Source: a virus. From it: a stretch of 41,290 nucleotides of DNA. The notes under the pieces were generated by a model. That model saw only the letters and a list, made by a program, of their open reading frames with translations. It did not search any database and was not told the origin of the DNA. The DNA is taken from UHGV virus genome UHGV-0387525. One strand, 5' to 3'. Shown here piece by piece: positions 461 to 32,901 of this stretch; the stretch's first letter is position 1; every line of letters begins with the position of its first letter. The position numbers and the translations under genes were made by a program.

Positions 461-1045
461 ATGAAAAGTATCCAGGACGTCCGCAGGCAAAATCTCAACG
501 ACTTGATCGACCGTGAATTCAATGGTGTTCAGACGCGGATGGCAGAAAAACTTGGAACTCAGGCAAATCTGGTAAACCGCTGGGCTCTTGGCAAGAAGGT
601 TATCGGCGACCAGGTTGCACGAAAAATTGAAGCGGCCGCCAATAAACCCCGTAACTGGCTTGATATTGATCGTTCGCTTTCTCAGGAGGGTTTTCAGCCT
701 GTCGGCCCGAGCGATATAGGTCAGCTGGCGGCTCACAACCTGGAACGCTGGATGAGCGAAAGCCGCGACCTTTCAACACAGGGAAAACTTCACCGCGCAT
801 CCGGCGTCGCCCAGGTGACAATCAGCCGCCTGTTAAACAATGAGGTCAGCGTTTCCATTTCCACCCTGGAGAATGTTGCATCCGCATTCGGGCGTCACGG
901 ATATGAACTACTGATTCACCCGCACGACCCTGCGACTATCAACTATGACCGCTCACGCTACGCATTGTTACCCGAAACCGAGAAAGCAAAGATCGAAAGT
1001 TACATTGAATTTGTCATCAACCAGAACGAAAAAAGCAAACAATAA
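461..1045 (+). CDS. tandem-HTH transcriptional regulator; candidate non-cleavable immunity repressor
   Basis: 194 aa with two XRE-like HTH segments (RMAEKLGTQANLVNRWALGKK and ASGVAQVTISRLLNNEVSVSI); no S24 peptidase-like motif seen; monocistronic, followed by intrinsic terminator; weak RBS. Confidence 0.5.
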   Translation: MKSIQDVRRQNLNDLIDREFNGVQTRMAEKLGTQANLVNRWALGKKVIGDQVARKIEAAANKPRNWLDIDRSLSQEGFQPVGPSDIGQLAAHNLERWMSESRDLSTQGKLHRASGVAQVTISRLLNNEVSVSISTLENVASAFGRHGYELLIHPHDPATINYDRSRYALLPETEKAKIESYIEFVINQNEKSKQ

Positions 1046-1066
1046 AACTATAGTTTTCAGTAAGTA

Positions 1067-1090
1067 AGCCGCCTCATGGCGGCTTTTTTA
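1067..1090 (+). terminator. rho-independent terminator
   Basis: stem agccgcc/ggcggct, loop tcat, then TTTTT. Confidence 0.7.
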
Positions 1091-1102
1091 TTGCCAGATA
1101 GA

Positions 1103-1117
1103 TTACCTTACGGGTAA
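1103..1117. promoter_or_regulatory. operator-like palindrome TTACC-N5-GGTAA
   Basis: ttaccttacgggtaa; preceded by TTGCCA -35-like hexamer at 1091-1096. Confidence 0.6.
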
Positions 1118-1164
1118 TTTTTTTAACTCATATCTATTGACACCAAACCAAATAAGCATAATTA

Positions 1165-1179
1165 TTACCCCAACGGTAA
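1165..1179. promoter_or_regulatory. operator-like palindrome TTACC-N5-GGTAA at a promoter
   Basis: ttaccccaacggtaa; TTGACA at 1137-1142 upstream; site overlaps the predicted -10/+1. Confidence 0.6.
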
Positions 1180-1198
1180 CAGACCGAGGTAACAAGTT

Positions 1199-1351
1199 AT
1201 GCAGTGGAAAATCATCAACGGTTGGTACTGCGTTACTGCATGCGGATTCATGAGCTGGAAGTTCCGCACCTTACAGGAAGGCATTAAGTGGGCTTTCGTC
1301 AGCAAAGAAGCTCGCGATGTAGCCAACGATAACGAGATATGGGAGGGCTGA
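1199..1351 (+). CDS. small hypothetical protein (50 aa), not in the supplied ORF track
   Basis: ATG at 1199 with GAGG 8-9 nt upstream; TGA at 1349-1351 overlaps RBS of next gene. Confidence 0.3.
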   Translation: MQWKIINGWYCVTACGFMSWKFRTLQEGIKWAFVSKEARDVANDNEIWEG

Positions 1352-1353
1352 TA

Positions 1354-1653
1354 ATGAACGTTAATCAGCAGAAAAATCTTCAAAAAATCATGCTGGCATT
1401 CGACAAGGACTACCGCCTGTCAGAACAGCTATATGACCGACAAGTTGAACTGATTGAGAGCATCCGACTTCATCAACTGTCCTCAACTTTCGACGTTGTA
1501 ACAGGCAAAGGCGTTCGTCAGGAAGTGCTGGAGGCTGCTAAAGACAGCCCTGAGTTCGAAGAACTGATGGATGCCTACCGGCGCGAGGCAATGGCAATTA
1601 TAGCGCGCTGGGATCTGGCGGATCAGCTTGATGGGCAGAGGGACGCGGCATGA
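1354..1653 (+). CDS. hypothetical early protein
   Basis: ORF with GGGAGGG RBS 7 nt before ATG 1354; stop overlaps next start (ATGATG). Confidence 0.5.
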   Translation: MNVNQQKNLQKIMLAFDKDYRLSEQLYDRQVELIESIRLHQLSSTFDVVTGKGVRQEVLEAAKDSPEFEELMDAYRREAMAIIARWDLADQLDGQRDAA

Positions 1654-2549
1654 TGCGGAACGCTGGAATCATGGATAGAACAAAATACATCGGAGGAAGC
1701 GATGTTGCAGGGATTCTTGGAATTAGCCCATGGCGCACCCCGCTTGAGGTTTATCTGGATAAGGTCCAGCCACGTGTCAAACCAGTAGACCCAAGCAAGC
1801 AGAAAGTTTTCACGCGTGGCCAGCGTATGGAGCCATACGTAATAGACCTGCTTTCTGAGGAAACAGGGATGGAAATCGTTCATCGCGGAAACCGCTATAT
1901 CCACCGTGATTACGATTTTATTGCAGCTGAGATCGATGCAGAAGCAGCGTCAGGCGAGAACATTGAGATCAAAACAGTTAGTCCGTTCAAAGCCAAAGAA
2001 TGGGGAGAAATCCAGACAGATGCAATTCCTGTGCATTACACGGCCCAGGCCATGCACGGGTTGATGGTTACAAACAAACAGGTATGCGTTTTCGGTGTGC
2101 TTATCGGTGGCGACGACTTCCGAATCTATCGGGTTGAGCGTGATGAAGAAACTATCCAGGCGATCTTAGAAAAAGAAATCGCTTTCTGGGACCGAGTGAA
2201 AAATCTTAACCCGCCGGAAGCTACCAGCGTAAGCGATGTATCGCTGATGTTTGAGAAAGATGCCGGGACAAGTATCGAGGCTGACGGAAAGGCACTCGCA
2301 CTATTCAACGATCTACGAGACATGAAATCACGCAGAAAATCACTGGAAGAAGAAATAGCTATATCAGAAGAGAAGCTGAAGATGTACATGCAAGAGCACT
2401 CAGTCCTGACCCTGGACGGAAAGCCGCTCTGCACATGGAAATCTCAGATCAGCAACATATTCGACCAGAAGCTATTCCAGTCAGTACACCCTGAGTTATT
2501 CGAAAAATTCAAAACAACAACGACACAACGCGTCTTCAGAATGAAGTAA
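1650..2549 (+). CDS. YqaJ-type (lambda-Exo-fold) recombination exonuclease
   Basis: N-terminal GGSDVAGILGISPWRTPLEVY signature typical of YqaJ viral recombinase family; immediately upstream of RecT. Confidence 0.8.
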   Translation: MMRNAGIMDRTKYIGGSDVAGILGISPWRTPLEVYLDKVQPRVKPVDPSKQKVFTRGQRMEPYVIDLLSEETGMEIVHRGNRYIHRDYDFIAAEIDAEAASGENIEIKTVSPFKAKEWGEIQTDAIPVHYTAQAMHGLMVTNKQVCVFGVLIGGDDFRIYRVERDEETIQAILEKEIAFWDRVKNLNPPEATSVSDVSLMFEKDAGTSIEADGKALALFNDLRDMKSRRKSLEEEIAISEEKLKMYMQEHSVLTLDGKPLCTWKSQISNIFDQKLFQSVHPELFEKFKTTTTQRVFRMK

Positions 2550-2558
2550 GGAGAAAAA

Positions 2559-3581
2559 ATGTCTATCAATGCACTTAAGGCAGCGGCTACCGGTAACCAA
2601 GTTGCACATCATAATGAGAAACCAACAACTCTGGCCGGACTTCTGGCAGACCCAAAAATTAAAGCTCAGATGGCTTTGGCACTTCCAAAGCACATGACAG
2701 CAGACCGTCTGGCGCGCATAGCAACCACAGAGATCAGAAAGGTTCCAAAACTTGCATCATGCGACCAAGCCAGCTTCCTGGGGGCAATTATGCAATGTGC
2801 CCAATTGGGTCTTGAACCAGGCGGAGCTCTTGGACACGCTTACCTGATACCGTTCGACAAACGCCAGAAAGTAAATGGAAGATGGGAAACCGTATCTACA
2901 GAAGCACAGCTGATTATCGGCTATCGCGGAATGATTGACCTTGCCCGCCGCTCTGGGCAGATCCTGAGTATCTCGGCTCGTACCGTACATACAAACGACA
3001 AATTCAGCTACTCATACGGCCTGGAAGAAACGCTCGAGCATTTACCTTGCGAAACAGGTGACCGCGGAGAATTAACGCACGTTTACGCCGTTGCACGACT
3101 GAAAGATGGCGGAGTCCAATTTGAAGTTATGAGCCGGGCAGACGTTGAGAAAGTTCGTGCACTGAGCAAAGCCGGTAGCAGTGGCCCATGGGTTGATCAC
3201 TTCGATGAGATGGCTAAAAAAACAGTAATTCGCCGACTGTTCAAATATCTTCCTGTTTCTATTGAAATGCAGAAGGCTGTTGTTATGGATGAGCGCGCTG
3301 AAGCTGGACTTAGCCAAGATAACGCAGCTGTTATCACTGGTGAATATTCCGTAGTTGACGATGAGCGTCAACACCTGTCGCCAATTTCAGATTCAGAACG
3401 AGAAGAAGCTCGAGAATATATCATCGCGATACTTAATAGCCTGGATCCATCTGCTGAAGATGCAAAAACGATGTTCAAGCGCGCTGAAAATGAAATTAAC
3501 ACCATGGCTGAAAAGCTCGGTGATGAATATCACCAAAAATTCATGATGACGCTTAACGATATGCGTCCAGAATTCGAGTAA
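2559..3581 (+). CDS. recT: RecT single-strand annealing recombinase
   Basis: long stretches recalled as near-identical to Rac RecT (ATTEIRKVP, LGLEPG..LGHAYL, LIIGYRGMIDLARRSGQI, HVYAVARLKDGG, RRLFKYLPVSIE). Confidence 0.9.
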   Translation: MSINALKAAATGNQVAHHNEKPTTLAGLLADPKIKAQMALALPKHMTADRLARIATTEIRKVPKLASCDQASFLGAIMQCAQLGLEPGGALGHAYLIPFDKRQKVNGRWETVSTEAQLIIGYRGMIDLARRSGQILSISARTVHTNDKFSYSYGLEETLEHLPCETGDRGELTHVYAVARLKDGGVQFEVMSRADVEKVRALSKAGSSGPWVDHFDEMAKKTVIRRLFKYLPVSIEMQKAVVMDERAEAGLSQDNAAVITGEYSVVDDERQHLSPISDSEREEAREYIIAILNSLDPSAEDAKTMFKRAENEINTMAEKLGDEYHQKFMMTLNDMRPEFE

Positions 3582-5589: not shown

Positions 5590-6846
5590 TTATTTATTAC
5601 TGTCTTCCATCCACTTCTCAAACTTCGACGGGGAGAACGGAATCAGATCCGTATGCTCCCCGTTAATCCAGGAATCAATCATATCGGCCCACTGCTGCAA
5701 CATGTAGGCGCGCTGTCTGGCGTATTCCGCTTTGTTATATACGGCGCGCACACCTTTCTGCTCGTGTGCCAGAGCCTTTTCAATCCAGTCTGAAGGATAA
5801 CCAGCCTCATGCAACAATGTACTGGCTGTACGGCGCATATCATGTACAGTAAAATCCTGAATATGCTCACCATCTTCATTTATTATTTTCACCGTTCTGT
5901 CGATCAGAGAGTTCAGCGCGGCATTAGATAATGGCTTCCGGAAATTGTAACGACCAGGAACCAGATATTCACTTCCACCAGCGCACATCTGCAACCCGAC
6001 TAATATATCCTGTGCCTGTTTAGGCAGGTAAATAACGTGCGCCCGACTTCCCTTCATGCGGTCTGAAGGAATTGTCCATGTCCATTTTTTAAAATCTATT
6101 TCATCCCACGTTGCATTGGTGAATTCTCCCTTACGAACCATGGTGATAAGCACCAGCTTTAAAGCCATTTTCATAGTGCCCATAGCACCAATGGCATCCA
6201 GCGTGCGGAAGAACAGGCCAATTTCTTCTGGTGTCAGTGTTCGCTCTCGTGGTTTAAATATGGCGATAGACGAAGGTTTAATGTCAGCCGCAGGATTAAA
6301 CAAACCATGACCACGGTCATTGGCGTGACGGTATACGCTGCTGATGATCTCCCTGGCCTGTACTGCTGTTGCCCGACCACCGCGTTCGACAATCCGGTCA
6401 CACAAATCACGAACCATTGATGTGGTAATTTCAGCCATCATTTTGTTGCCAAGAACCGGAAGTATGTCACGGTCGATCACCGCCTGCTTCATTGCGCGGG
6501 TACTGTCAGCCAGGATGACGTGTTTCATATAACTGTCGGTATGTACCGCAAACGTCTCGGCACCACGAATCTTTTTAATACCGTCACGTTTAGCCGCAGC
6601 CGGTGACTGGCCTGCTTTAAGCAGCTTCTTTGCAGCAATCAGTTCTTCTCGCGCTTCTGCCAGGCTGATACCGTCACGCCCATACTGCCCGATTACCAGT
6701 GTTTCGCGGCGACCGTTGATACGGTAGTCATAGCGAAACGAGACCGTGCCTGACGTAAGCACAGCTACATACAGCCCGTCACGATCGGAGACCTTGTACA
6801 GTTTGTCCTGCGGCTTGAGGTTTTTTAATTTTGTATCGGTAAGCAC
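5590..6846 (-). CDS. int: tyrosine-type phage integrase
   Basis: 418 aa; C-terminal catalytic region with HDMRRT and LAH...VRAVY motifs (R-H-R-Y pattern). Confidence 0.9.
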   Translation of the reverse strand: MLTDTKLKNLKPQDKLYKVSDRDGLYVAVLTSGTVSFRYDYRINGRRETLVIGQYGRDGISLAEAREELIAAKKLLKAGQSPAAAKRDGIKKIRGAETFAVHTDSYMKHVILADSTRAMKQAVIDRDILPVLGNKMMAEITTSMVRDLCDRIVERGGRATAVQAREIISSVYRHANDRGHGLFNPAADIKPSSIAIFKPRERTLTPEEIGLFFRTLDAIGAMGTMKMALKLVLITMVRKGEFTNATWDEIDFKKWTWTIPSDRMKGSRAHVIYLPKQAQDILVGLQMCAGGSEYLVPGRYNFRKPLSNAALNSLIDRTVKIINEDGEHIQDFTVHDMRRTASTLLHEAGYPSDWIEKALAHEQKGVRAVYNKAEYARQRAYMLQQWADMIDSWINGEHTDLIPFSPSKFEKWMEDSNK

Positions 6847-6993: not shown

Positions 6994-7163
6994 AATTAGT
7001 ATCTGAATAGGAATGAGTTGCTATGAGTTAGCTGTTAATCATTCCCACTCAATTATTTACGATAACCATAACCAATTGAGTGATAACATTTTTCCAAATC
7101 TCAATTTTTCCCGTACCGTTTTATATACCGTCACCGGAAATCAGTACCATGAAAAATGCCATG

Positions 7164-9242: not shown

Positions 9243-9270
9243 GCCCGCAATATTTTGCGGGCTTTTTTTT
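9243..9270 (+). terminator. plus-strand intrinsic terminator abutting the tailspike stop
   Basis: stem gcccgcaa/ttgcgggc, loop tatt, then eight T on plus strand. Confidence 0.55.
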
Positions 9271-12200
9271 AACGTTCTTCCAGAGACTGAACCCGCTCTT
9301 TTATCTTATCCATTTCTCTGCGCTGCCATGCTGCCTCGATATAGAATAAGAGATCAGGTCTGACCCCCCATCTAGATCCTGCTGGCGTTATTTCAACGCG
9401 CTCAATGATGTCTTCTATTACCATCACTGGATTATCATCCTCATCAACAATGATGCTCCCGTCATTATCAGTCAGCGGCATTTCCCTTTGGCCAGTAATG
9501 ACGTCATCATATACTGCGGGATAATCGTCATAGCAAAGAAAGGCATAGCGGCATGTTGTGCTTTCTTCTTCCATGAGTCCGTGAGAAATAAGAACATCAC
9601 GAAGTTGCTGCGCGATTACACCATGATGTATCCTCGCCCCTTCTTCCCCCTTTATAGCGACAGCGTTCAGCCATTTATAAGCGATATACCTGACGTCACC
9701 CCAGGCATCCAGCAATGCTTCGTCAGGAGAGACCGGCTCTGTCTTTAATGTTCCGTCACTGGTAACCACAGGATTGGAGCCAAGATAAACTGTCGAGAAC
9801 CTGTTTCCCGGACCACCAAGAGCATTTACATTATCAAGATAAGGTTTAACATCTCCGTTCTCAAAAAGATGTTCGAGTGCGTTATATACCGCGCGACGTG
9901 GAGTACTGCTTCCGGAACCATGCAACGTTATCATTGCACCATCTGCTGAAGACGTTGTTTCACCGCCGCTAACGATTAATCTCTGAGCGGTAACATCATC
10001 AGACGGTACTTTCTTCGCAATAATGGCGTAATTACCCTCAAGTTTGACTTCCGCGCGAACTTGTCCTGATGTACCTGCATGGACAGTCAGTGACTGGACG
10101 GCAACATCATCTGTGAAATCAACGGGTACAGGAACCGTCCTCACGCCTGACGTCGACATAAAAGTAGGAAGCGTTCTGTTAGGAGTGGCTCCGTAGACAA
10201 AATCCCTTGAAACAAATTCTTCCTGTTTAATTTTCACCCTGAAACAATACAAATCAGCCGGGTGACCATCGTGAACATAAGGATATTTTCTGTTGTTATC
10301 CCCTATGCTCCATGGGTTTAGAAAGTCTTCCCCACCGAAAATGTAGTACAGCCAGTTGTCTTTGATACAAACTGAACCAACACCAACCGCAGAGTTAACT
10401 ATTCCGCCCTGATAAATCTGATCAGTAACATTAACCCACTCTACATTATCCAGACTCCACTCATTGACGTTAACTCTGGTCATAAATGTTCTTGGATAAT
10501 TTCCTGCATAACGGTTATCAGGTTCTCCTCCTTCCCACTCACCAAATGCGCGCTCACTGCCAAAAATAATCAGCTCATCGCCAACTTTGGCAAAAGGAAG
10601 GTTTGAGTGATGAACATTATTTGGGAAGCGAAGAGAATTCCATGATGTACCTAAATCAGAGCTTCTGTGCAATGAACTACCGGGTTGAGTACTTAATGTC
10701 CCCCTGGTCGTCAGATACAGAATGCCATCATAATATTTTACACATGGCTCAGATGCATTCGCCTCATATTCTACAGGTATGCGTCTGCGAACAAAGCTAC
10801 CAGGAGAACCGAAAGCATCAGAGAAATAGAGTATCCCAAGCTCGCGTGGACCAATATCACCATTATGGTAGCCAACAGCAAAACTGTTATCGCTAATCGT
10901 CGCAAAACTGTGAATCTCAGTAACAGGAGTGCTTCCGTCAACAAAAGAAGGAATAGTTCCAAGACTGGTTTTTCTCCATGGTGACGAGTGAAATGATGTG
11001 CCAAAACTCCAGTATCTACCCTCGTTATTCTGATCCACATCCTGGGTATTTTGCGTCGTAACTGTAAAGGTATTTTTATCAATAACAGTAGTCACCGTCA
11101 TATTCCCGGTAACACCTGTAACACCAGAGTTTGAGAAGTTGACAAAATCACCAGCAAATAATCCGTGATCAGTAATGCGAATATAAGCGACTTGCTGATT
11201 TGCTGCTTTCGTTATACCACCATAAACGCGAAGGCTGCGACTCATTGGGCGATCCCACAACTCTGCAACCTGCAGTTTATTTCCTCTCACGGTCCGCGTC
11301 TCAATTACAGCAAAAAGGCGATTTCTGACAACCCCCATACTCATGCAGTGATAGTTAACTGTGGGATAGTTTTCATGTAAATCTGTAAGCCATTCCGGCG
11401 TTGTCCAGGTCTTCCCGTCATCTCCTGAGCGAACCCATGCAACATGGAGGTTATTCACACCATGGCGGTCTCCAGCCATAAAAGGCGCATAGATGACATT
11501 GTCATATACAAACGTTTTATCCTGCGTCCAGGCGTTGTACCACGGTGTATCTGTAATTTTAAATAACTCTCCCTGGATAAAATCTTCAGAAGCATAAAAA
11601 AGAGGCTGGCCCGGTATTCTCTCAAATAAAAAACGAGCATTTTTAAATCGACTGACATCCGGAAGAGTTGATACTTTAAAAGTAAGCCCTAATCCGTCAA
11701 TTTTATAACCTGGAGATGAGGCTTCAAGGCACGCGCTTATTGCAGTGGAATCGTCATTTATACCATCACCAACAGCTCCAAAATCTTTGGGGCTAATAGC
11801 ATCACGCATTTTATCCTGGAACGTTCGGTACACAGCCCCAGAACCATACTGAATAAACCAACCAAAACCACCAACAACTCCGGCGATTGCAGCATCGACA
11901 TAATTACGCATTGAGCGATTATTTACAGCGTCCTGCTCAAATGATGGATCTGCAAGGTTAGAAATTTTGTTTTGCTTTGCATCGTAATATTTTGCAAGCA
12001 AAGATGGTTTCATCAATGCACGTCTGAACCACCCAAAACATTGCTGGATCAGCATCGTCAGGTAGTCAAAGGCATCTTCATGCACTTCGGGGAAAAATTT
12101 TCCCTGATTGCGAAGGTCTGTGTCCTGCACTACATCAAGCACACGATCTATCGTAATTCGCCATCCAGTAGCAAGCGGAGACGGAAGAACCACAGAACCG

Positions 12201-12388
12201 CCACTATAAGTGCCCGCCCCAGTTACCGTATAACCGGTATCCAGGACCAATTCTGTTACGTTCCCGTTCAGGTCAGACACCTGAACAACCAGGTCTGATT
12301 TTCTGAAAATTCGAAAAGTATACGGAAACGATGTCGTAACGCCGTTACCGGTGTATTCGTTGTGGTCAACTTCGGTTGAGACCGTCAT
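9269..12388 (-). CDS. tail fibre/tailspike with predicted glycan depolymerase body and C-terminal S74-type intramolecular chaperone
   Basis: 1039 aa; N-terminus shows T7 gp17-like adaptor pattern (YTGNGVTTSFPYTF...VVQV); DFGAVGDGINDDSTAI pectate-lyase-like motif; Asp-box-like SGDDGKTW and SSDLGTSW; C-terminal ...ARIHHGVIAQQL chaperone-like segment. Confidence 0.75.
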   Translation of the reverse strand: MTVSTEVDHNEYTGNGVTTSFPYTFRIFRKSDLVVQVSDLNGNVTELVLDTGYTVTGAGTYSGGSVVLPSPLATGWRITIDRVLDVVQDTDLRNQGKFFPEVHEDAFDYLTMLIQQCFGWFRRALMKPSLLAKYYDAKQNKISNLADPSFEQDAVNNRSMRNYVDAAIAGVVGGFGWFIQYGSGAVYRTFQDKMRDAISPKDFGAVGDGINDDSTAISACLEASSPGYKIDGLGLTFKVSTLPDVSRFKNARFLFERIPGQPLFYASEDFIQGELFKITDTPWYNAWTQDKTFVYDNVIYAPFMAGDRHGVNNLHVAWVRSGDDGKTWTTPEWLTDLHENYPTVNYHCMSMGVVRNRLFAVIETRTVRGNKLQVAELWDRPMSRSLRVYGGITKAANQQVAYIRITDHGLFAGDFVNFSNSGVTGVTGNMTVTTVIDKNTFTVTTQNTQDVDQNNEGRYWSFGTSFHSSPWRKTSLGTIPSFVDGSTPVTEIHSFATISDNSFAVGYHNGDIGPRELGILYFSDAFGSPGSFVRRRIPVEYEANASEPCVKYYDGILYLTTRGTLSTQPGSSLHRSSDLGTSWNSLRFPNNVHHSNLPFAKVGDELIIFGSERAFGEWEGGEPDNRYAGNYPRTFMTRVNVNEWSLDNVEWVNVTDQIYQGGIVNSAVGVGSVCIKDNWLYYIFGGEDFLNPWSIGDNNRKYPYVHDGHPADLYCFRVKIKQEEFVSRDFVYGATPNRTLPTFMSTSGVRTVPVPVDFTDDVAVQSLTVHAGTSGQVRAEVKLEGNYAIIAKKVPSDDVTAQRLIVSGGETTSSADGAMITLHGSGSSTPRRAVYNALEHLFENGDVKPYLDNVNALGGPGNRFSTVYLGSNPVVTSDGTLKTEPVSPDEALLDAWGDVRYIAYKWLNAVAIKGEEGARIHHGVIAQQLRDVLISHGLMEEESTTCRYAFLCYDDYPAVYDDVITGQREMPLTDNDGSIIVDEDDNPVMVIEDIIERVEITPAGSRWGVRPDLLFYIEAAWQRREMDKIKERVQSLEER

Positions 12389-12492
12389 GTTAAATCTCCA
12401 GATAGTCGCAGCACCCGTTGCGCCGCATATCTGGTTATTCTATTACCTAAAAAACCATATATGGATAAAAAGACTATAAATACCAATAGATA

Positions 12493-12507
12493 TTACCTTT
12501 CGGGTAA
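12493..12507. promoter_or_regulatory. operator-like palindrome TTACC-N5-GGTAA
   Basis: ttacctttcgggtaa upstream of gene 12584..12841. Confidence 0.6.
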
Positions 12508-12544
12508 TTTGCAAAACGTGCTGGATAGCAAACAAATTATTTGT

Positions 12545-12564
12545 TACTGTATAAACATACAGTT
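12545..12564. promoter_or_regulatory. LexA (SOS) box
   Basis: TACTGTATAAACATACAGTT: CTGT-N8-ACAG, 17/20 match to TACTGTATATATATACAGTA. Confidence 0.7.
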
Positions 12565-12583
12565 ATTGCATGGAGAAGATAAG

Positions 12584-12841
12584 ATGCAGCAGTATCACTA
12601 TCCACTGGAAGACGGATTTACCGAAAGGATTCACACGCCGGGAGGCGTCAGGTCACTGGTGGAGGGATCGCACTTGATGAAATTACTCCGGGATCTCGAT
12701 AAGGATGGATTTAATGTCGATGGCCCACTTGCCGAACTGACTGCACTGATTAACTACGTCACCAGCTCACAGATGTCTATGCAGGATCTGCAAACACATC
12801 TCGACTATTGTGCCGAACAATTACGAAAACAAACCCGGTAA
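12584..12841 (+). CDS. small antirepressor-like protein (Tum-like), paralogous to C-terminus of Ant
   Basis: 85 aa; GGAGAAG RBS before ATG 12584; LMKLLRDLDKDGFNVDGPLAELTAL...MQDLQTHLDY aligns by eye with LMNLLNQLQEDGHDVSGAAAELTTM...LRDIQTHAEY at the end of 13990..14685. Confidence 0.55.
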   Translation: MQQYHYPLEDGFTERIHTPGGVRSLVEGSHLMKLLRDLDKDGFNVDGPLAELTALINYVTSSQMSMQDLQTHLDYCAEQLRKQTR

Positions 12842-12847
12842 ATTTAA

Positions 12848-12865
12848 AGGCCGCAAGAGCGGCCT
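12848..12865. terminator. bidirectional hairpin between convergent genes
   Basis: stem aggccgc/gcggcct, loop aaga; T-rich on both sides. Confidence 0.45.
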
Positions 12866-13592
12866 ATCGTTTCGCTTTGTGCTCGTCCCAGCACGTTTTG
12901 CACCATGCCATTAAGCCGTCCGCATTTTGATTATTAGGGTAAAAGCTGGTCCGTTTTCTGCGGACATTACAAATTGGGCACCACTTCATATGGCGTGTAT
13001 TCTTTGGGCCATCGAGACACCTTGCACACCACTTAGTCAATCCATCTGGATTTTTTGACGATTTCCGGAATTTGTCATATGGAAGGTTTATTCTGCATCG
13101 CAAACACTGCTTGCGGCCACTTGAAACTCTGTTAGCTGATTCTTCTTTTGGCGGCGATACAGAAGGTATTCTTGCTGGCTCTGATACTGCCTGAGGTGCT
13201 TTATTAGATGACTGAGACGATATGTCATCACCAGGGAATCTTCCATGATATGCCGGACGCGTTGACACTCCAGGTGGAAGCTCAGCTGTAAACGGCTTTG
13301 GCTGAATCAGTTGCCTCTCTTTTGCTAACTCCTGCTGTTTATAATATGTCTGGATTACCGCACTATCATAAGCAGGAGGTGCGGAAATATTAGGCGCATT
13401 ACCTCCAGTTTTTTGAAACTGAGTAGAGGTGTGTTCTATCACCTGTGTACGATTAATCGTTATCTCCCCATCTTCGGTCTTTATCGTTTTGTTATGATTA
13501 ACGACCGTACGATCAGAGATCTTAGTCTTGTTCTGGTTGATAACGTAAATAATCACCGCAACCACACCAACAACTATCCAGAAAACTTCCAT
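12864..13592 (-). CDS. membrane-anchored protein with tandem Cys-rich (zinc-ribbon-like) repeats
   Basis: 242 aa; N-terminal TM helix; two copies of C..C..N.DGL..WC..C pattern near C-terminus. Confidence 0.45.
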   Translation of the reverse strand: MEVFWIVVGVVAVIIYVINQNKTKISDRTVVNHNKTIKTEDGEITINRTQVIEHTSTQFQKTGGNAPNISAPPAYDSAVIQTYYKQQELAKERQLIQPKPFTAELPPGVSTRPAYHGRFPGDDISSQSSNKAPQAVSEPARIPSVSPPKEESANRVSSGRKQCLRCRINLPYDKFRKSSKNPDGLTKWCARCLDGPKNTRHMKWCPICNVRRKRTSFYPNNQNADGLMAWCKTCWDEHKAKR

Positions 13593-13989: not shown

Positions 13990-14685
13990 ATGACAGCTAC
14001 AAAAAGCACGTCCATTTTTTCTTTCGAATCCCAAGCCGATATACGGGTAATCGTCATTAATGGTGAGCCATGGTTTATCGCTTCAGATGTTTGTCGGGCT
14101 ATAGGCATAGCAAACCATCGAGATGCTGTTCGAAAACTTGATGATGATGAGAAGGGCGTCGCTTCAACCGACACCCCTGGCGGTGAGCAAGAATCGATCA
14201 TCATCTCCGAGTCAGGCCTCTACACACTGATCCTCCGCTGCCGCGACGCAGTGACACCAGGCACTATCCCCTACCGCTTTCGCAAATGGGTTACAGGTGA
14301 GGTTCTTCCTCAGATCCGCCGCACCGGAAGTTACATTAAAAACTCGCTCCCGCAGGAAGAACGCATAAAGATGGTTGCCGACCAGGTAGCCAACGCCACA
14401 GCATCAGCAGTAATGCAGGCGATGAAGATAGAGAACAAAACCTACAGCGCCCCACTGAAGCCCGGCTACCGCAGCCTGATTCATTCTCCGTCTGGTGTTC
14501 TCGGCCTGACGGAGAACTCACTGCTGATGAATTTGCTGAACCAGTTGCAGGAAGACGGGCACGATGTATCGGGCGCGGCGGCGGAGCTGACAACCATGTT
14601 TTGCTACATCGTTGGTGTGAGTAAATGCCTGCGTGATATCCAGACTCACGCGGAGTACATCAACGACAAAGCAGGATTCTTCTGA
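13990..14685 (+). CDS. ant: antirepressor with N-terminal Bro-N domain
   Basis: 231 aa; Bro-N-like N-terminus (IRVIVINGEPWFIASDVCRAIGI...ESGLYTLILRCR); C-terminal segment paralogous to 12584..12841. Confidence 0.75.
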   Translation: MTATKSTSIFSFESQADIRVIVINGEPWFIASDVCRAIGIANHRDAVRKLDDDEKGVASTDTPGGEQESIIISESGLYTLILRCRDAVTPGTIPYRFRKWVTGEVLPQIRRTGSYIKNSLPQEERIKMVADQVANATASAVMQAMKIENKTYSAPLKPGYRSLIHSPSGVLGLTENSLLMNLLNQLQEDGHDVSGAAAELTTMFCYIVGVSKCLRDIQTHAEYINDKAGFF

Positions 14686-14798: not shown

Positions 14799-15008
14799 AT
14801 GGGATTTTGGTTCGCTCGTACAAAAACGAGGGATAATGCACCCAGCCCTCAGGCAAAAAATACAGAAGTTCCGGCGTCAGCGCAGGTTAACAAGCGTGGT
14901 GGTGTGTATATCTCATCACAGCAAATTTCTGAGCTTCCTGAGGTTAAGGAGATGCGTCGTCTCGCTGCTGCAATCGTTAAACAGGATCTTGCCACTGTAA
15001 GGAAATAG
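14799..15008 (+). CDS. small hypothetical protein
   Basis: 69 aa; GAGGAGG RBS before ATG 14799. Confidence 0.5.
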   Translation: MGFWFARTKTRDNAPSPQAKNTEVPASAQVNKRGGVYISSQQISELPEVKEMRRLAAAIVKQDLATVRK

Positions 15009-15871
15009 TGTTGTTAGCTCTTCTAATTATCCCCATTCTGGTTAGTGGTTATATTATGATAACCGCTAACCAGTATCATTATTTCCGTTTATACCGACAT
15101 GAAGGCCAGCTTCTTTATATGAAAGTAGCTGCATTAGGTACATATTGCCTTGTTGCTTCTGTAATAATTGCCACATTTATAAAATATAAATATCCTGATT
15201 TTCACCTAGTTCACGATATGGTGGAAACTTTTAATGTAACGTCAAAACCAGAAACAGATAGAATTTACATGTGGCTACTTCTTCTGTCAGTCACATCAAT
15301 TTGCTTCTCTTTGTGTTATGTATCTTTTGTTTGGCTAAAAGATCTTCTTTTAGGTTGTTTTTATAAACGTGATATTTATGACAAAATATCAGAGGCAATG
15401 AAAGCTAGGGTATTGCGAAAAACGTACTCCCAGGGTTCTTTAGATTTGCTATTGCTTGATGCAATCGAATCAGATCCTAAGAAACCAATGTTAATTACTT
15501 TATCATCAAATAAAGTATACGTTGGAATAATAAATGGTTCTGGTGAGCCAACGGAAAATCAAGGGCCACACCAACACATATCTTTTGTTCCTTTAATGTC
15601 AGGGTACAGAAACAAAGAAAATTTATCTGTTACATTTACAAACGCTTACCCAGGTGAAATCCAAATTAAGCGCAGTGCTGCGATAAAAGGGATAAGCAAA
15701 AAGAAAGTTCAAGGTCTAGAAATTATGGTATCTATAGACGAAATAAGTCATATATCATGGTTTGACTTTGAAGTATATAAGGCAACAAATAACAAAGTAG
15801 AAACAAAGGGTCATGTTGTTAATGTGACCAAAAATGGTCGCAACATATACTACAGAAGTGGCAGGAAATAA
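15008..15871 (+). CDS. polytopic membrane protein of unknown function (accessory gene)
   Basis: 287 aa; about three N-terminal TM helices then soluble domain; AT-rich; GTG start overlapping upstream stop, alternative ATG 15056. Confidence 0.5.
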   Translation: MLLALLIIPILVSGYIMITANQYHYFRLYRHEGQLLYMKVAALGTYCLVASVIIATFIKYKYPDFHLVHDMVETFNVTSKPETDRIYMWLLLLSVTSICFSLCYVSFVWLKDLLLGCFYKRDIYDKISEAMKARVLRKTYSQGSLDLLLLDAIESDPKKPMLITLSSNKVYVGIINGSGEPTENQGPHQHISFVPLMSGYRNKENLSVTFTNAYPGEIQIKRSAAIKGISKKKVQGLEIMVSIDEISHISWFDFEVYKATNNKVETKGHVVNVTKNGRNIYYRSGRK

Positions 15872-15895
15872 ATTTTACGCAGTTTAGGTGGCTTA

Positions 15896-16400
15896 TATGG
15901 ATAATACTATCTTAGGCGCATTGATAGGTGCTGTTATTGCTATAGTTTCCACTTATATAAATGCAGGACAAGGATACAAAAACAGCATAAGATTAGAGCG
16001 ACAAAAAATATTAAGGGATAAACGCGAGCAATTATTTATAAATTGTATACTTACTAAAAAAGTCATAGATTCAAGCACAATTACCATTCTCAATTTCGTA
16101 AAAAATGCCAGATACCACTCTGATAGTAAATTTGACGTATCAAGAGCGAATCCGTTGCAAACGATGGAAATGCTAATAAACATATACCTTCCTGAGTATA
16201 AAAAAGACTTACAAGAACTCAATAATGCGTATCAAGAATTTCACAAATACTACTCTCAATATACATGTGCACATACCTTCAAAAATATGCCTGATAATGA
16301 GAAGTCGAGGTTTATTGAGGAGGCTGATTTTTATGCAAAAAAGATATATGGCAAACTTAATGATATTAAGGACAAGATATCATTAAACTCAATAGTATAA
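15896..16400 (+). CDS. single-pass membrane protein of unknown function (accessory gene)
   Basis: N-terminal TM helix ILGALIGAVIAIVSTYI; AGGTGG RBS 5 nt before ATG 15896; AT-rich. Confidence 0.5.
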
Positions 16401-17361: not shown

Positions 17362-20300
17362 CTATTTCATCTGCTCTTCAACTTTATTTAGTAATGGTGA
17401 TATCGCCCACAGATTCTGAAAAGGTAGCATTTTACGGACAGCGTGGGTTTGCTGGCTGTCAAATTCTCCGTTAAGTACACCATTTGCAACCGTCGCGGCA
17501 TCACCGCCAAGATCAAAGGTAGGACCAAGTAAAGCACCAATAGCATTACGACTCTGAAACCTTGATACCGGAGGCGCACCAAACATCGCGCCAAGACCAA
17601 ACCTACCGCCGCTTATGTTCTCAACGGTATTCAGCGGCTCAGAGAGCCAGCCAAGCATTCCGCCCCGGTCGATCCCCTCTTTCACAAGGTTATTCCAGCT
17701 GTAGTCGATATCGCGACCGCTTAACTTCTGTTTCATCATATAGACCATTGAGCCAAGCGCAATCGTGCCAAGCGCACCAAGATAGAATGCAGCATCGCCC
17801 TGCTGGATACCAGATACCAGCACCCTGTTATGCTGTGCGAAGATAAACGTTTTGAACTGCGTGATCATCTTCCAGCCTTCTTTACTAAAAAACAGCGGTG
17901 TATCACCTACGCCAGGCGTTACAATCACTGAGTCTACATCTTTCAGCACTGCAGACTGGAAAATCTCTCTAGCGAAACGGTCATCCCACAGATGACTATG
18001 CCCGGTTAACAGCCCGCCCATATCCTCTCCGTGCTTCCCGAATTGCTCCCCGATTCGGCGCAGAACATCTTCATTGATGCCGACCTGTGCCATCTTCCGC
18101 ATTTCACTTTTGGAGAGCGTGCCACCAGCAGAAACTTGGCGAGCCGCGTCAAGTATCCTCGACTGCACTATCATCCCAGACCATGATTTAAGTGCGCTGT
18201 TCCACTGATTCATCAGCGTCCAGTTACCGAATTTCTGCGTCATCCAGTTCAGACCTCGCTCAGCGGCGCTTCTCCGGCTATAGGGGTCAGTAAGATCCGC
18301 TATAGCCTTTGTACGCGTAGACAGGACATAATCAAGCCCAACTGCCATTTCTCGCAAATCCCTGGTTGCAATTTTCACTGAGTCCATATTTTTAAGCATG
18401 CTTACCATTGGTCCGAGAGATTTTCTCAGGCCATGCTGCATCATCGGTCGCATCAGATCAGTTGCAGCGGAGACAGTCATTCCACCAAGCAAACGGAGGA
18501 AGTTAATATTCCTAGCAACTCGCCCGGCACGAACAAAGAAACTGCGTGGATCTTGAGGTGCACCGTAAGTACCAAGCAGTCGATCACGCATAGCCGTAAT
18601 ATCCCTAATATCAGCCTCCCGTTGCTTCTCAAGAACTGCACGTCGTTTAGGTGTTTTAGCCTCTTTTATTAGCCGGGTATATTCCTCACTAACCTGACGG
18701 ATTTGCTCCCCCATATCTTTACGGCCAAACTGCGCAGTCAGCTCAATTTCTGGTGCCACCTGCCGGAGATAACTTTCCATGATGTAGTTAACATCTGATT
18801 CAAGAAAATCTTCTATACGCTCATCAGGAATAAGCAGCGTTCTGCTTTTAGTGAAACCAGCCCGACCAACGAGTCTCTCTGGGATAATATCGGCTGGTAC
18901 AAGCCCGGAAGGTGCGCCTATTATTTTATTCACGATCTCGTCAGCAGCGTCCTCTGCTTCCTCTCGGGATAGAGGCTCCATCTGCTTCAGTGCTCGCTCG
19001 CGGCTTGCATTCAGCCTTGTGGTTGAATTTGCCCGTTTTTGCAGTCGGCGAAGCTCAGAACGATATTTCCGTGGATTATCCAGCAACTCCATATGGCGCT
19101 GATAGACAGGAAGCTCACTCTTTGCCTGCGCTATATCATCAAGGCGTGTTTTAAGGTCAGAGCTTTCTTTCATCATTCTTGCCTGAAGTTTTTCTGATGA
19201 AGTCTCGGCCAACTCTTTTTCTATTCTTGTAAGACGCGCCTGTGTGTCAGTCTCCTGAGATATAAGCTTATTTCGTTTATCCAGTTCTTCCATGAGTAGA
19301 ATTTTTTTACCAGACCATTTCTCCGCTTCAGCGATTTCACTAGCGAGAGCATCAGCGCGCGGTGCTGATTCCTCTGCAGTTTTTAGCAATGAATTTATCT
19401 TTTCAATTCGCTGACCTGCTTTGTCAGCACCTTTGGCACTAATCCCTTGTATCCAGTTGGCAATTCGCCCTCTGAATTCAGTGCGGTCGGAAAGTATCTT
19501 ATCGAACTTATAAATGCGGGGAAGATAACTCTTCGCCGTCACGACATCGATATCCTCAGGAAGGATCCCCAATTCCTGCATACGGGCTTTTGTGGTCTCA
19601 AAAATGGGGCGGATTCTGGCGGCTGCTTGTGAAACCTCAGGAATATCACTCTGATCACCACGGCGCATAGCCATGCCAACAGCTTCATTGAAATCAATAA
19701 AGTTCATCCTCTTCACGCCGCGGGCGCTGACAGATTTGCTGTACTGCTGGTAAGCATCACGAGTAGCTTCCATCTGCTTATAAAGCATGGCGTCGTATTG
19801 CTTAATCTTAGTCTCGACTGCCGTAAACGTAGCCAACCCCTCATCATTTTTGGCGAAGAAATAGTTATTTTCGGCAAGCTGCTGGTTAATCTGACGGGAG
19901 ACAAGAGATGGTGATTGCGCCAAGCGGCCAGCAGGAGTGACACTCAACGTTTTGTTAGCAAGTCCAAGTCCAGCGAGCTGTTCCTGATCGAGTGTGGTAT
20001 TGAAAACCTGAGCTGCACCAATGCTTTGAGGAGAATCCATACCTCGCAAATGATTACCTACTGAGTTAACCACTGCCTCGCGCGCGCTAGGTCCAGCAAG
20101 TAGCTGTGCACCAGCACCAAGGATCCCACCAACGAGAGCATCAACAACAACGTTCGATACGCTCTCCATCGGTGAGCGAGCTTCCTGAGTGGCCTGTAAT
20201 GCGGCTTCTGATACTCCCCCACCAGCAGCATTCGCCAGGGCAAAACGCCCTGCCGTCTCAGCAATACTTCCTCCACGCGCTACCGCCCCTACAGGGATGA

Positions 20301-20751
20301 ACATTGCAGCCACATTAACCGGGTCTATCATTCCCATTGCTAAGCTTGAAATAGTACCAGCACCACCCATTTCAGATAGATATTCTCTATCTGTTCTTTG
20401 CTTATCGATTCGATGTTTAATTGCCATTGTTTCTTCATGCGAACCGGAGTTGATAAACGAATCTGCAAAATCTTCATAGCCTTTAATATCTGCTGCATCG
20501 TTATCAAATGGGTTATATCCTTCAACCCTGTCAAACTGACTGAAAGGAGCACTGGCAATAAAGCTACCCAGCGTGTTATCTATACGAAATGCTGCTTGTC
20601 TAGACCTTTGAACGCGTTGATCACTGGTAAATGGGTTCACAGCAGAAAGCAAAGAAGGTGTTTCCATATAGAAATTACTGTCATCAGGTGCTGCTATTTG
20701 CTGAATATCCTCGCCAAGCAACTCTTTAGGATCCTGTTCATATATCGGCAT
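17362..20751 (-). CDS. large internal virion/ejection protein (T7 gp16-like by size and position)
   Basis: 1129 aa; Gly/Ala-rich and coiled-coil segments; last gene of virion block. Confidence 0.45.
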   Translation of the reverse strand: MPIYEQDPKELLGEDIQQIAAPDDSNFYMETPSLLSAVNPFTSDQRVQRSRQAAFRIDNTLGSFIASAPFSQFDRVEGYNPFDNDAADIKGYEDFADSFINSGSHEETMAIKHRIDKQRTDREYLSEMGGAGTISSLAMGMIDPVNVAAMFIPVGAVARGGSIAETAGRFALANAAGGGVSEAALQATQEARSPMESVSNVVVDALVGGILGAGAQLLAGPSAREAVVNSVGNHLRGMDSPQSIGAAQVFNTTLDQEQLAGLGLANKTLSVTPAGRLAQSPSLVSRQINQQLAENNYFFAKNDEGLATFTAVETKIKQYDAMLYKQMEATRDAYQQYSKSVSARGVKRMNFIDFNEAVGMAMRRGDQSDIPEVSQAAARIRPIFETTKARMQELGILPEDIDVVTAKSYLPRIYKFDKILSDRTEFRGRIANWIQGISAKGADKAGQRIEKINSLLKTAEESAPRADALASEIAEAEKWSGKKILLMEELDKRNKLISQETDTQARLTRIEKELAETSSEKLQARMMKESSDLKTRLDDIAQAKSELPVYQRHMELLDNPRKYRSELRRLQKRANSTTRLNASRERALKQMEPLSREEAEDAADEIVNKIIGAPSGLVPADIIPERLVGRAGFTKSRTLLIPDERIEDFLESDVNYIMESYLRQVAPEIELTAQFGRKDMGEQIRQVSEEYTRLIKEAKTPKRRAVLEKQREADIRDITAMRDRLLGTYGAPQDPRSFFVRAGRVARNINFLRLLGGMTVSAATDLMRPMMQHGLRKSLGPMVSMLKNMDSVKIATRDLREMAVGLDYVLSTRTKAIADLTDPYSRRSAAERGLNWMTQKFGNWTLMNQWNSALKSWSGMIVQSRILDAARQVSAGGTLSKSEMRKMAQVGINEDVLRRIGEQFGKHGEDMGGLLTGHSHLWDDRFAREIFQSAVLKDVDSVIVTPGVGDTPLFFSKEGWKMITQFKTFIFAQHNRVLVSGIQQGDAAFYLGALGTIALGSMVYMMKQKLSGRDIDYSWNNLVKEGIDRGGMLGWLSEPLNTVENISGGRFGLGAMFGAPPVSRFQSRNAIGALLGPTFDLGGDAATVANGVLNGEFDSQQTHAVRKMLPFQNLWAISPLLNKVEEQMK

Positions 20752-32824: not shown

Positions 32825-32901
32825 GTGGCATTAGCTCAGTTGGACAGAGCAACCGCCTTCTAAGCGGTTGGTCGCAGGTTCGAATCCTGCATGCCACGCC
32901 A
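32825..32901 (+). tRNA. tRNA-Arg (anticodon UCU)
   Basis: manual cloverleaf: acceptor GTGGCAT/ATGCCAC, D-arm GCTC/GAGC, anticodon stem ACCGC/GCGGT with loop CTTCTAA, T-arm GCAGG-TTCGAAT-CCTGC, discriminator G, encoded CCA. Confidence 0.9.

What the first reader, a model, noticed from the sequence alone, without database searches (positions are those of the whole stretch)
9269..12388. Composite tailspike: gp17-like adaptor, depolymerase body with Asp-box-like motifs, and S74-type chaperone
The N-terminus follows the T7 tail-fibre adaptor pattern. The body carries a pectate-lyase-like DFGAVGDGINDD motif and two S-x-D-x-G-x-T/S-W motifs. The C-terminus looks like an autocleaving intramolecular chaperone. 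Receptor specificity cannot be read from sequence; an endosialidase-like activity was considered but is not supported well enough to assert.
Basis: partly seen in the sequence, partly recalled or inferred. Interest (0 to 1): 0.5.

Follow-up and report, generated by a model that had tools for sequence, protein, structure and literature searches.

The report
K1 capsule-degrading phage endosialidase tailspike
This gene encodes an already described phage tailspike that cuts the polysialic-acid (K1) capsule of E. coli, here mounted on an epsilon15/phiV10-type temperate phage, so it is real but ordinary.

Summary
It is a three-part tailspike.

- **aa 1-~196, virion anchor.** It is of the epsilon15 gp20 type (71% identity). 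It resembles T7 gp17 only at the fold level.
- **aa 205-877, endosialidase (GH58).** It has the N-terminal cap, a six-bladed beta-propeller with an inserted beta-barrel, and the stalk. Pfam E is 1e-232. Identity is 66% to the crystallised K1F EndoNF and 97% to the experimentally active CUS-3 SiaK1. Every catalytic residue reported for EndoNF is conserved.
- **aa 878-1039, self-cleaving chaperone (S74).** The Ser877/Lys882 dyad is intact.

The two "Asp-boxes" are exactly the two EndoNF Asp-boxes. The "pectate-lyase-like" motif is the start of the endosialidase N-terminal cap, not a beta-helix lyase.

The gene is 100% identical in DNA to a RefSeq gene annotated as an endosialidase. It is 99.7% identical to ORF7 of phage vB_EcoP_ZX5, whose host is a K1 strain and whose three-domain architecture was published in 2022. 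It is already known and of low interest.

The parts
9269..12388 (-). Complete tailspike gene, 1039 aa plus stop. The precursor is 115.7 kDa. Predicted products after cleavage are a 97.2 kDa mature spike and an 18.6 kDa chaperone.
   Evidence: 100.0% nt identity to RefSeq gene MW398_RS07285 / WP_016236143.1
11801..12388 (-). N-terminal virion anchor, aa 1-~196. It has a beta-sandwich (aa 9-82, pLDDT 85-91) followed by a long helix and neck. It is of the Uetakevirus (epsilon15 gp20) type.
   Evidence: 71% identity to epsilon15 gp20 over aa 1-165 and 98.3% nt identity to phiv142-3 over nt 1-582. PDB Dpo31/Carin-1 fibre E 3e-35. AF2 model plus Foldseek: 8ck1_B E 3e-12; T7 gp17 N-terminus 7ey9/7boz E 4e-5 to 2e-4.
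11690..11800 (-). Junction segment, aa ~197-233, containing DFGAVGDGINDD. It diverges from both the phiv142-3-type and the CUS-3-type parents. Variable bodies are joined to the conserved anchor after '...FQDKMRD'.
   Evidence: 30-nt identity scan and multiple alignment
11576..11776 (-). Endosialidase N-terminal cap domain, aa 205-271
   Evidence: Pfam PF12218 E 5.9e-32
10226..11575 (-). Six-bladed beta-propeller catalytic domain (GH58), aa 272-721. It carries two Asp-boxes and catalytic residues H309, R515, E547, R562, R613.
   Evidence: Pfam PF12217 E 1.7e-232; EndoNF alignment; residue list from PMC12632334
10994..11242 (-). Beta-barrel (lectin-like) domain inserted in the propeller, aa 383-465
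   Evidence: Pfam PF12195 E 3.2e-46; 100% identical to CUS-3
9758..10225 (-). Stalk (triple beta-helix / tail-spike domain), aa 722-877, ending at the cleavage serine S877. R863 corresponds to EndoNF R897.
   Evidence: Pfam PF12219 E 8.4e-78
9269..9757 (-). C-terminal intramolecular chaperone (peptidase S74), aa 878-1039 plus stop. The catalytic dyad is S877/K882 in NPVVT-S|DGTLK.
   Evidence: Pfam PF13884 E 1.7e-10; PDB 3gw6 E 2e-93; dyad conserved; dyad role from PMC8326128
9243..9262 (.). GC-rich hairpin GCCCGCAAAATATTGCGGGC, 6 nt after the stop codon. It is a likely transcription stop or stabiliser. The T-run lies on the + strand side only.

Best explanation
The gene encodes the single tailspike of a temperate epsilon15/phiV10-like podovirus (Uetakevirus type) that infects K1-encapsulated E. 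coli.

Inferred by homology to EndoNF: the protein folds as a homotrimer. [quoted passage not shown] It then removes itself by Ser877/Lys882-dependent autoproteolysis between S877 and D878.

The mature ~97 kDa trimer is anchored through its N-terminal beta-sandwich/neck (aa 1-~196) to the adaptor/nozzle of the short tail (inferred). [quoted passage not shown] This lets the virion tunnel through the K1 capsule to the outer membrane (inferred).

The gene is a recombinant. It joins a Uetakevirus anchor to the enzyme-plus-chaperone block that is otherwise found, 99.3% identical in DNA, in the P22-like prophage CUS-3.

Shown here: the domain architecture, residue conservation, near-identity to characterised enzymes, the mosaic junctions, and the phage context. 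Inferred: enzymatic activity, self-cleavage and tail attachment of this particular protein.
For: Domains and structures:
- Four endosialidase Pfam domains plus S74 cover aa 205-937, with E from 1e-10 to 1e-232.
- EndoNF crystal structures 1v0e/3gvl match at E=0 over aa 205-876. Phi92 endosialidase 4hiz matches at E 9e-271. EndoNF chaperone 3gw6 matches at E 2e-93.

Identity to characterised enzymes:
- Identity over the catalytic part, aa 205-876, is 97.0% to CUS-3 SiaK1 and 65.7% to EndoNF.
- The CUS-3 record marks endo-alpha-sialidase activity as directly assayed.

Conserved residues:
- EndoNF H350, R549, E581, R596, R647, plus Q330, D331, H527, S528, K585 and N699, are all conserved.
- The cleavage residues S911, K916 and R897 are also conserved.

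Relatives and hosts:
- The gene is 99.7% identical in nt (4 aa changes) to ORF7 of the plaque-forming phage vB_EcoP_ZX5. Its host is O87:H52:K1, and its authors describe the same three domains.
- Full-length copies occur in 72 complete E. coli genomes, including CE10, whose record name gives O7:K1. RefSeq names them as endosialidase.

Phage context:
- The rest of the window is phiV10/epsilon15-like.
- It has tail-tubular and internal-virion proteins, a lysis cassette next to the spike, and an intact attP core at 7037-7053.

Anchor:
- It is 71% identical to epsilon15 gp20.
- The fold matches fibre anchors seen in situ in the Carin-1 and T7 tails.
- Dpo31 domain D1 is the domain linked to the virion base.
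Against: No activity, trimerisation or cleavage was measured for this exact protein. Q853 of EndoNF, which I recall as part of a stalk polySia-binding site (from memory, not checked), is Met819 here and in CUS-3. Sequence cannot tell how the enzyme handles O-acetylated K1 or K92 (alternating 2,8/2,9) polymers. The attachment partner on the tail is inferred only from the fold.
Confidence: 0.93

Rival explanations
1. The body is a pectate-lyase-fold (right-handed beta-helix) depolymerase of unknown capsule or O-antigen specificity, as the DFGAVGDGINDD motif suggested to the first reader.
For: There is a sub-threshold PF12708 hit on aa 201-221 (E 0.035, 14.3 bits against a cut-off of 27). Sister prophages with a 97%-identical anchor do carry PF12708 bodies that start with the same motif.
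Against: The match is 21 residues long and falls inside PF12218 (E 5.9e-32). The following 600 residues are a GH58 beta-propeller, barrel and stalk at E=0 to EndoNF structures. Similarity to phiv142-3 ends at about aa 227.
Confidence: 0.01
2. The protein is a catalytically dead, binding-only polysialic-acid fibre, or a decaying prophage remnant.
For: The gene is mostly seen in prophages. Some copies are disrupted, for example by IS3 in strain 23CRST038 (H36).
Against: The reading frame is intact. All listed catalytic and cleavage residues are conserved. There are only 4 aa differences from the spike of the plaque-forming phage ZX5. The propeller is 99.6% identical to the assayed CUS-3 enzyme.
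Confidence: 0.04
3. The enzyme is an endosialidase whose natural substrate is a polysialic acid other than plain K1, such as K92 or O-acetylated forms. The host range would then differ from that of classical K1 phages.
For: Phi92 endosialidase is also a strong match (E 9e-271). This phage has no neuO-like gene next to the spike, unlike CUS-3.
Against: The match to EndoNF is better than to phi92 (1046 against 904 bits). The ZX5 host and hosts of near-identical prophages are K1.
Confidence: 0.1

Closest known systems
vB_EcoP_ZX5 ORF7 (QTH80017.1) and RefSeq WP_016236143.1
   Same: Same gene. ZX5 ORF7 is 99.7% identical in nt, with 4 aa changes (D89E, V539A, I991M, V1033I). The GN02050 prophage copy is 100.0% identical in nt. 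The three-domain architecture, the Uetakevirus backbone and the neighbouring lysis cassette are the same.
   Different: The rest of the window shares only about 50-70% of its length with ZX5. The phage is a mosaic relative, not the same isolate.
CUS-3 SiaK1 endosialidase tailspike (ABQ88383.1, P22-like prophage of E. coli K1 RS218)
   Same: Nt 699-3091 are 99.3% identical. The propeller is 99.6% identical in aa, the barrel 100%, the stalk 98.7% and the chaperone 92.6%.
   Different: The N-terminal ~190 aa are unrelated. CUS-3 has a P22-type head-binding domain; this protein has an epsilon15-type anchor. The last ~14 aa differ. CUS-3 has neuO downstream, whereas here the lysis genes follow.
K1F EndoNF (gp17; PDB 1v0e, 3gvl, 3gw6)
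   Same: Same domain order from the cap to the chaperone. Identity is 65.7% over the crystallised part. The catalytic, Asp-box and cleavage residues are identical.
   Different: The EndoNF anchor is a true T7 gp17 N-terminus (PF03906), and K1F is a lytic T7-like phage. There is a 7-residue insertion here (FVDGSTP, aa 482-488).
epsilon15 gp20 and phiV10 / phiv142-3 tailspikes
   Same: Same N-terminal anchor: 71%, 68% and 92-97% identity. Same gene position in the genome.
   Different: Their distal parts are other enzymes (O-antigen or other depolymerases, PF12708-type in phiv142-3 relatives) and show no similarity beyond aa ~165-227.
Carin-1 Dpo31 tailspike (PDB 28lx, 8ck1)
   Same: The N-terminal D1 beta-sandwich plus the start of the coiled-coil neck is homologous (E 3e-35; Foldseek E 3e-12, 47% id). 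It also sheds an 18 kDa C-terminal domain.
   Different: Its host is a marine Cobetia phage and its catalytic domain is unrelated.

Membership tests
Phage endosialidase (endo-N-acetylneuraminidase, GH58) | Six-bladed beta-propeller catalytic domain with inserted beta-barrel, preceded by the N-terminal cap and followed by the stalk | tested here: met
   PF12218, PF12217, PF12195 and PF12219 are all far above their gathering scores. EndoNF and phi92 structures match at E=0 and 9e-271.
Phage endosialidase (endo-N-acetylneuraminidase, GH58) | Catalytic residues (EndoNF H350, R549, E581, R596, R647) and two Asp-boxes | tested here: met
   H309, R515, E547, R562 and R613 are conserved. The Asp-boxes lie at 321-328 and 576-583, in the same alignment columns as in EndoNF. 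The residue list comes from PMC12632334.
Phage endosialidase (endo-N-acetylneuraminidase, GH58) | Endolytic cleavage of alpha-2,8-polysialic acid | not testable with these tools
   Inferred from 97% identity to CUS-3 SiaK1, which is annotated as directly assayed, and from the K1 host of ZX5.
Peptidase S74 / C-terminal intramolecular chaperone domain | Domain homology and the Ser-Lys dyad at the S|(D/N)Gxx-K junction, with the stalk Arg | tested here: met
   PF13884 E 1.7e-10; 3gw6 E 2e-93. S877, K882 and R863 align to EndoNF S911, K916 and R897 (roles from PMC8326128).
Peptidase S74 / C-terminal intramolecular chaperone domain | Actual self-cleavage and release of the ~18.6 kDa fragment | not testable with these tools
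   Needs SDS-PAGE of wild type against S877A.
T7 gp17 N-terminal tail-fibre domain (Pfam PF03906) | Sequence match above the Pfam gathering score | tested here: not met
   16.0 bits against a cut-off of 25.2, covering only aa 135-161. BLASTP to T7 gp17 gives E 0.3. The A1 profile does not find T7 gp17 in the PDB at E<=10. hhalign gives probability 6%, although the alignment is collinear over 121 columns.
T7 gp17 N-terminal tail-fibre domain (Pfam PF03906) | Same fold as the gp17 anchor seen on the T7 tail | tested here: met
   The AF2 model (beta-sandwich pLDDT 85-91; overall 63) hits T7 gp17 N-terminus chains 7ey9_a, 7boz_a and 8dsp_C at E 2e-5 to 2e-4, probability 1.00. It also hits anchors of the PhiM1, Kp7, Kp9 and P-SCSP1u fibres. 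TM scores are only 0.34-0.57, so the evidence is moderate.
epsilon15 gp20-type (Uetakevirus) tailspike anchor | N-terminal ~165 aa homologous to epsilon15 gp20, in a genome with the epsilon15/phiV10 structural module | tested here: met
   70.9% identity to epsilon15 gp20 and 67.9% to phiV10. The structural genes are 97-98% identical to phiV10-like phages.
Pectate-lyase-like beta-helix depolymerase (PF12708) | Right-handed beta-helix domain match above threshold | tested here: not met
   Only aa 201-221 match, at 14.3 bits against a cut-off of 27.

The most novel reading that the evidence does not exclude
The conserved '...RD-x(3-4)-(D/G)(F/W)-GAxGDGxxDD' stretch may act as a recombination joint. 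It opens both the endosialidase cap and the pectate-lyase-type bodies. Through it, whole enzyme-plus-chaperone cassettes could move between P22-like, T7-like and epsilon15-like podoviruses. In this gene the ~37-aa joint (aa 197-233) matches neither the anchor donor nor the CUS-3 donor. That suggests at least two exchange events or a third parent.
Probability: 0.4. Interest if true: 0.25.

Novelty: already known. Interest (0 to 1): 0.12.

Why it matters
Its value is practical rather than conceptual. It shows that the K1 capsule depolymerase module circulates on a third podovirus chassis (epsilon15-like), besides the T7-like/SP6-like lytic phages and the P22-like CUS-3. It also shows that 72 of 5426 complete E. 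coli genomes carry this exact chimera. This matters for K1 phage typing and therapy, and for using endosialidases as polySia reagents. All of it is already in the databases and in the ZX5 paper.

Tried and rejected
- I tested the gp17 claim four ways by sequence, and all were below significance: Pfam on the isolated N-terminus, BLASTP, a profile-versus-PDB search and hhalign against a T7/K1F alignment. Only the structure route gave a clear link.
- NCBIfam has no model for the spike.
- I looked for a capsule-modifying gene next to the spike, like neuO in CUS-3 or the O-antigen genes of epsilon15. None was found; the lysis genes follow directly.
- PADLOC, Pfam and NCBIfam gave nothing usable for the low-GC cassette at 15008-16400.
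- PMC2666599 (EndoNF processivity paper) is not held, so I took residue roles from PMC12632334 and PMC8326128 instead.
- I did not test co-occurrence with the K1 neu/kps genes across the 72 genomes, because I had no reference neuS sequence.
Full report
**Observation.** The coordinates 9269-12388 delimit one uninterrupted ORF on the minus strand. It has 1039 codons, an ATG start, a TAA stop and a GGAG about 8 nt upstream.
- DFGAVGDGINDD at aa 202-213;
- SGDDGKTW at aa 321-328;
- SSDLGTSW at aa 576-583;
- the junction NPVVT-S|DGTLK at aa 872-882.

**What the body is.** Pfam places four endosialidase-specific domains back to back:
- End_N_terminal, aa 205-271, E 5.9e-32;
- End_beta_propel, aa 272-721, E 1.7e-232;
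- End_beta_barrel, aa 383-465, E 3.2e-46, inserted in the propeller;
- End_tail_spike, aa 722-876, E 8.4e-78.

Peptidase_S74 follows at aa 877-937 (E 1.7e-10). The pectate-lyase family PF12708 touches only aa 201-221, below threshold (E 0.035), inside the endosialidase cap.

Against solved structures, aa 205-876 match K1F EndoNF (1v0e, 3gvl) at E=0 and the phi92 endosialidase (4hiz) at E 9e-271. Residues 757-1038 match the EndoNF stalk plus chaperone (3gw6) at E 2e-93.

In a three-way alignment, aa 205-876 are 65.7% identical to EndoNF and 97.0% identical to CUS-3 SiaK1. A recent deep mutational scan of the K1F spike lists catalytic or intolerant residues (PMC12632334). All are conserved here:
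- H350, R549, E581, R596 and R647 correspond to H309, R515, E547, R562 and R613;
- Q330, D331, H527, S528, K585 and N699 are also conserved.

The two Asp-boxes sit in the same columns as those of EndoNF, at residues 362 and 610. The CUS-3 GenBank record marks SiaK1's endo-alpha-sialidase activity as directly assayed. The body is therefore a GH58 endosialidase, not a beta-helix lyase.

**The chaperone.** PMC8326128 describes the cleavage centre of EndoNF as the Ser911/Lys916 dyad, helped by stalk residue Arg897. These residues correspond here to S877, K882 and R863. Cleavage would give a 97.2 kDa mature spike and an 18.6 kDa fragment. This is inferred, not measured.

**The anchor.** The first ~165 residues are 70.9% identical to epsilon15 gp20 and 67.9% to phiV10. 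They are 92-97% identical to phiv142-3 and many E. coli prophage spikes. They also match the D1/D2 start of the marine Carin-1 spike Dpo31 (E 3e-35). Dpo31 D1 is a beta-sandwich positioned at the virion base in the cryo-EM map (PMC13317679).

The link to T7 gp17 is not significant by sequence:
- PF03906 scores 16 bits against a cut-off of 25.2;
- BLASTP gives E 0.3;
- the family profile does not find T7 gp17 in the PDB;
- hhalign gives a probability of 6%, although the alignment is collinear over 121 columns.

An AlphaFold2 model has a confident beta-sandwich at aa 9-82 (pLDDT 85-91) and a less confident neck. With Foldseek it retrieves, as its first 24 hits, only fibre or spike anchors bound to podovirus tails:
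- Carin-1 (E 3e-12);
- PhiM1, LME-1, Kp7, Kp9, P-SCSP1u and HRP29;
- T7 gp17 itself (7ey9, 7boz, 8dsp; E 2e-5 to 2e-4, probability 1.00, TM 0.34-0.57).

The window also encodes tail-tubular-type proteins of 201 and 823 aa and T7-style internal virion proteins. 'gp17-like adaptor' is therefore acceptable as a fold and function analogy. The sequence family is the epsilon15 gp20 type, and Pfam membership in PF03906 is not met.

**Mosaic origin.** At the DNA level the gene has four segments:
- nt 1-570 follow the Uetakevirus phiv142-3 (98.3%);
- nt ~571-690 (aa ~191-230) resemble neither parent;
- nt 699-3091 are 99.3% identical to CUS-3 siaK1;
- the last ~40 nt (about 14 aa) diverge again.

An alignment of sister prophage spikes shows that the anchor is constant up to '...FQDKMRD'. 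After that point unrelated bodies begin, most of them with the GAxGDGxxDD motif. This is ordinary tailspike module shuffling. The joint coincides with a motif shared by endosialidase caps and pectate-lyase-type bodies.

**Context.**
- The window is a complete temperate phage in excised form.
- Its structural genes are 97-98% identical to phiV10, TL-2011b and EC.W1-9.
- The spike is followed by two holin-type genes, a GH19 endolysin and a DUF2514 protein, and then by the integrase.
- The 17-nt attP core reported for ZX5 is present once, at 7037-7053. E. coli chromosomal matches break at exactly that point.

**Prior knowledge.**
- The gene is 100.0% identical in DNA to a prophage gene of E. coli GN02050. 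RefSeq names that gene 'endosialidase catalytic beta-propeller domain-containing protein' (WP_016236143.1).
- Full-length copies are present in 72 of 5426 complete E. coli genomes, including CE10, whose record name gives O7:K1.
- The gene is 99.7% identical to ORF7 of vB_EcoP_ZX5, with four amino-acid changes.
- ZX5 was isolated on an O87:H52:K1 strain. Its paper states that ORF7 has a T7-like tail-fibre N-terminus, an endosialidase middle and the endosialidase chaperone C-terminus (PMC9782041).

**Verdict.** The feature is real and well delimited. This is a K1-capsule endosialidase tailspike on an epsilon15-like temperate phage. It is already annotated and published. The most novel reading left open is the recombination-joint idea, which is of modest interest.

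Noticed in passing
window 15008-16400 (+): A low-GC (34-37%) two-ORF cassette (287 aa and 170 aa) lies between the antirepressor and the internal-virion genes. There is no Pfam, PADLOC or NCBIfam family for it; only PHROGs of unknown function match (3630, 36918), plus a weak YtoQ / nucleoside-deoxyribosyltransferase-like hit. RefSeq calls the region 'hypothetical / transmembrane anchored protein'. The full cassette is in only 8 complete E. coli genomes. It looks like a moron and is possibly a defence or superinfection-exclusion cassette.
   Followed up: partly
window 12461-12841 (+) and 13990-14685 (+): The 126-aa ORF immediately upstream of the spike, on the opposite strand, is a paralogue of the C-terminal half of the Bro-N antirepressor (42% identity over 74 aa, E 3e-15). 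It lacks the Bro-N domain.
   Followed up: partly
window 12864-13592 (-): A 242-aa protein with an N-terminal transmembrane helix and a C-terminal cluster of CxxC motifs. It belongs to PHROG 6762 (unknown function) and has weak hits to endonuclease VII / Lar-like zinc-binding modules. It sits upstream of the tailspike on the same strand.
   Followed up: partly
window 7037-7053 (-): An exact copy of the 17-nt attP core (ATTGAGTGGGAATGATT) reported for ZX5 integration at the 3' end of guaA. It lies between the integrase (5590-6846) and the lysis genes, so the window is the excised (circular or packaged) form of the phage.
   Followed up: yes
window 32825-32901 (+): A tRNA-Arg (anticodon TCT) is encoded inside the phage, near the portal and terminase genes, as in the related prophage of strain GN02050.
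   Followed up: no
window 9243-9262: A perfect 8-bp GC-rich hairpin lies 6 nt after the tailspike stop. The T-run is only on the + strand side, so it would work as an intrinsic terminator for + strand transcription rather than for the spike gene itself.
   Followed up: partly
window 20751-23498 (-) and 17362-20751 (-): Two very large internal virion proteins (915 and 1129 aa) with transglycosylase / endolysin-type PHROG matches. They are the T7 gp15/gp16-like ejection proteins of this phage.
   Followed up: no
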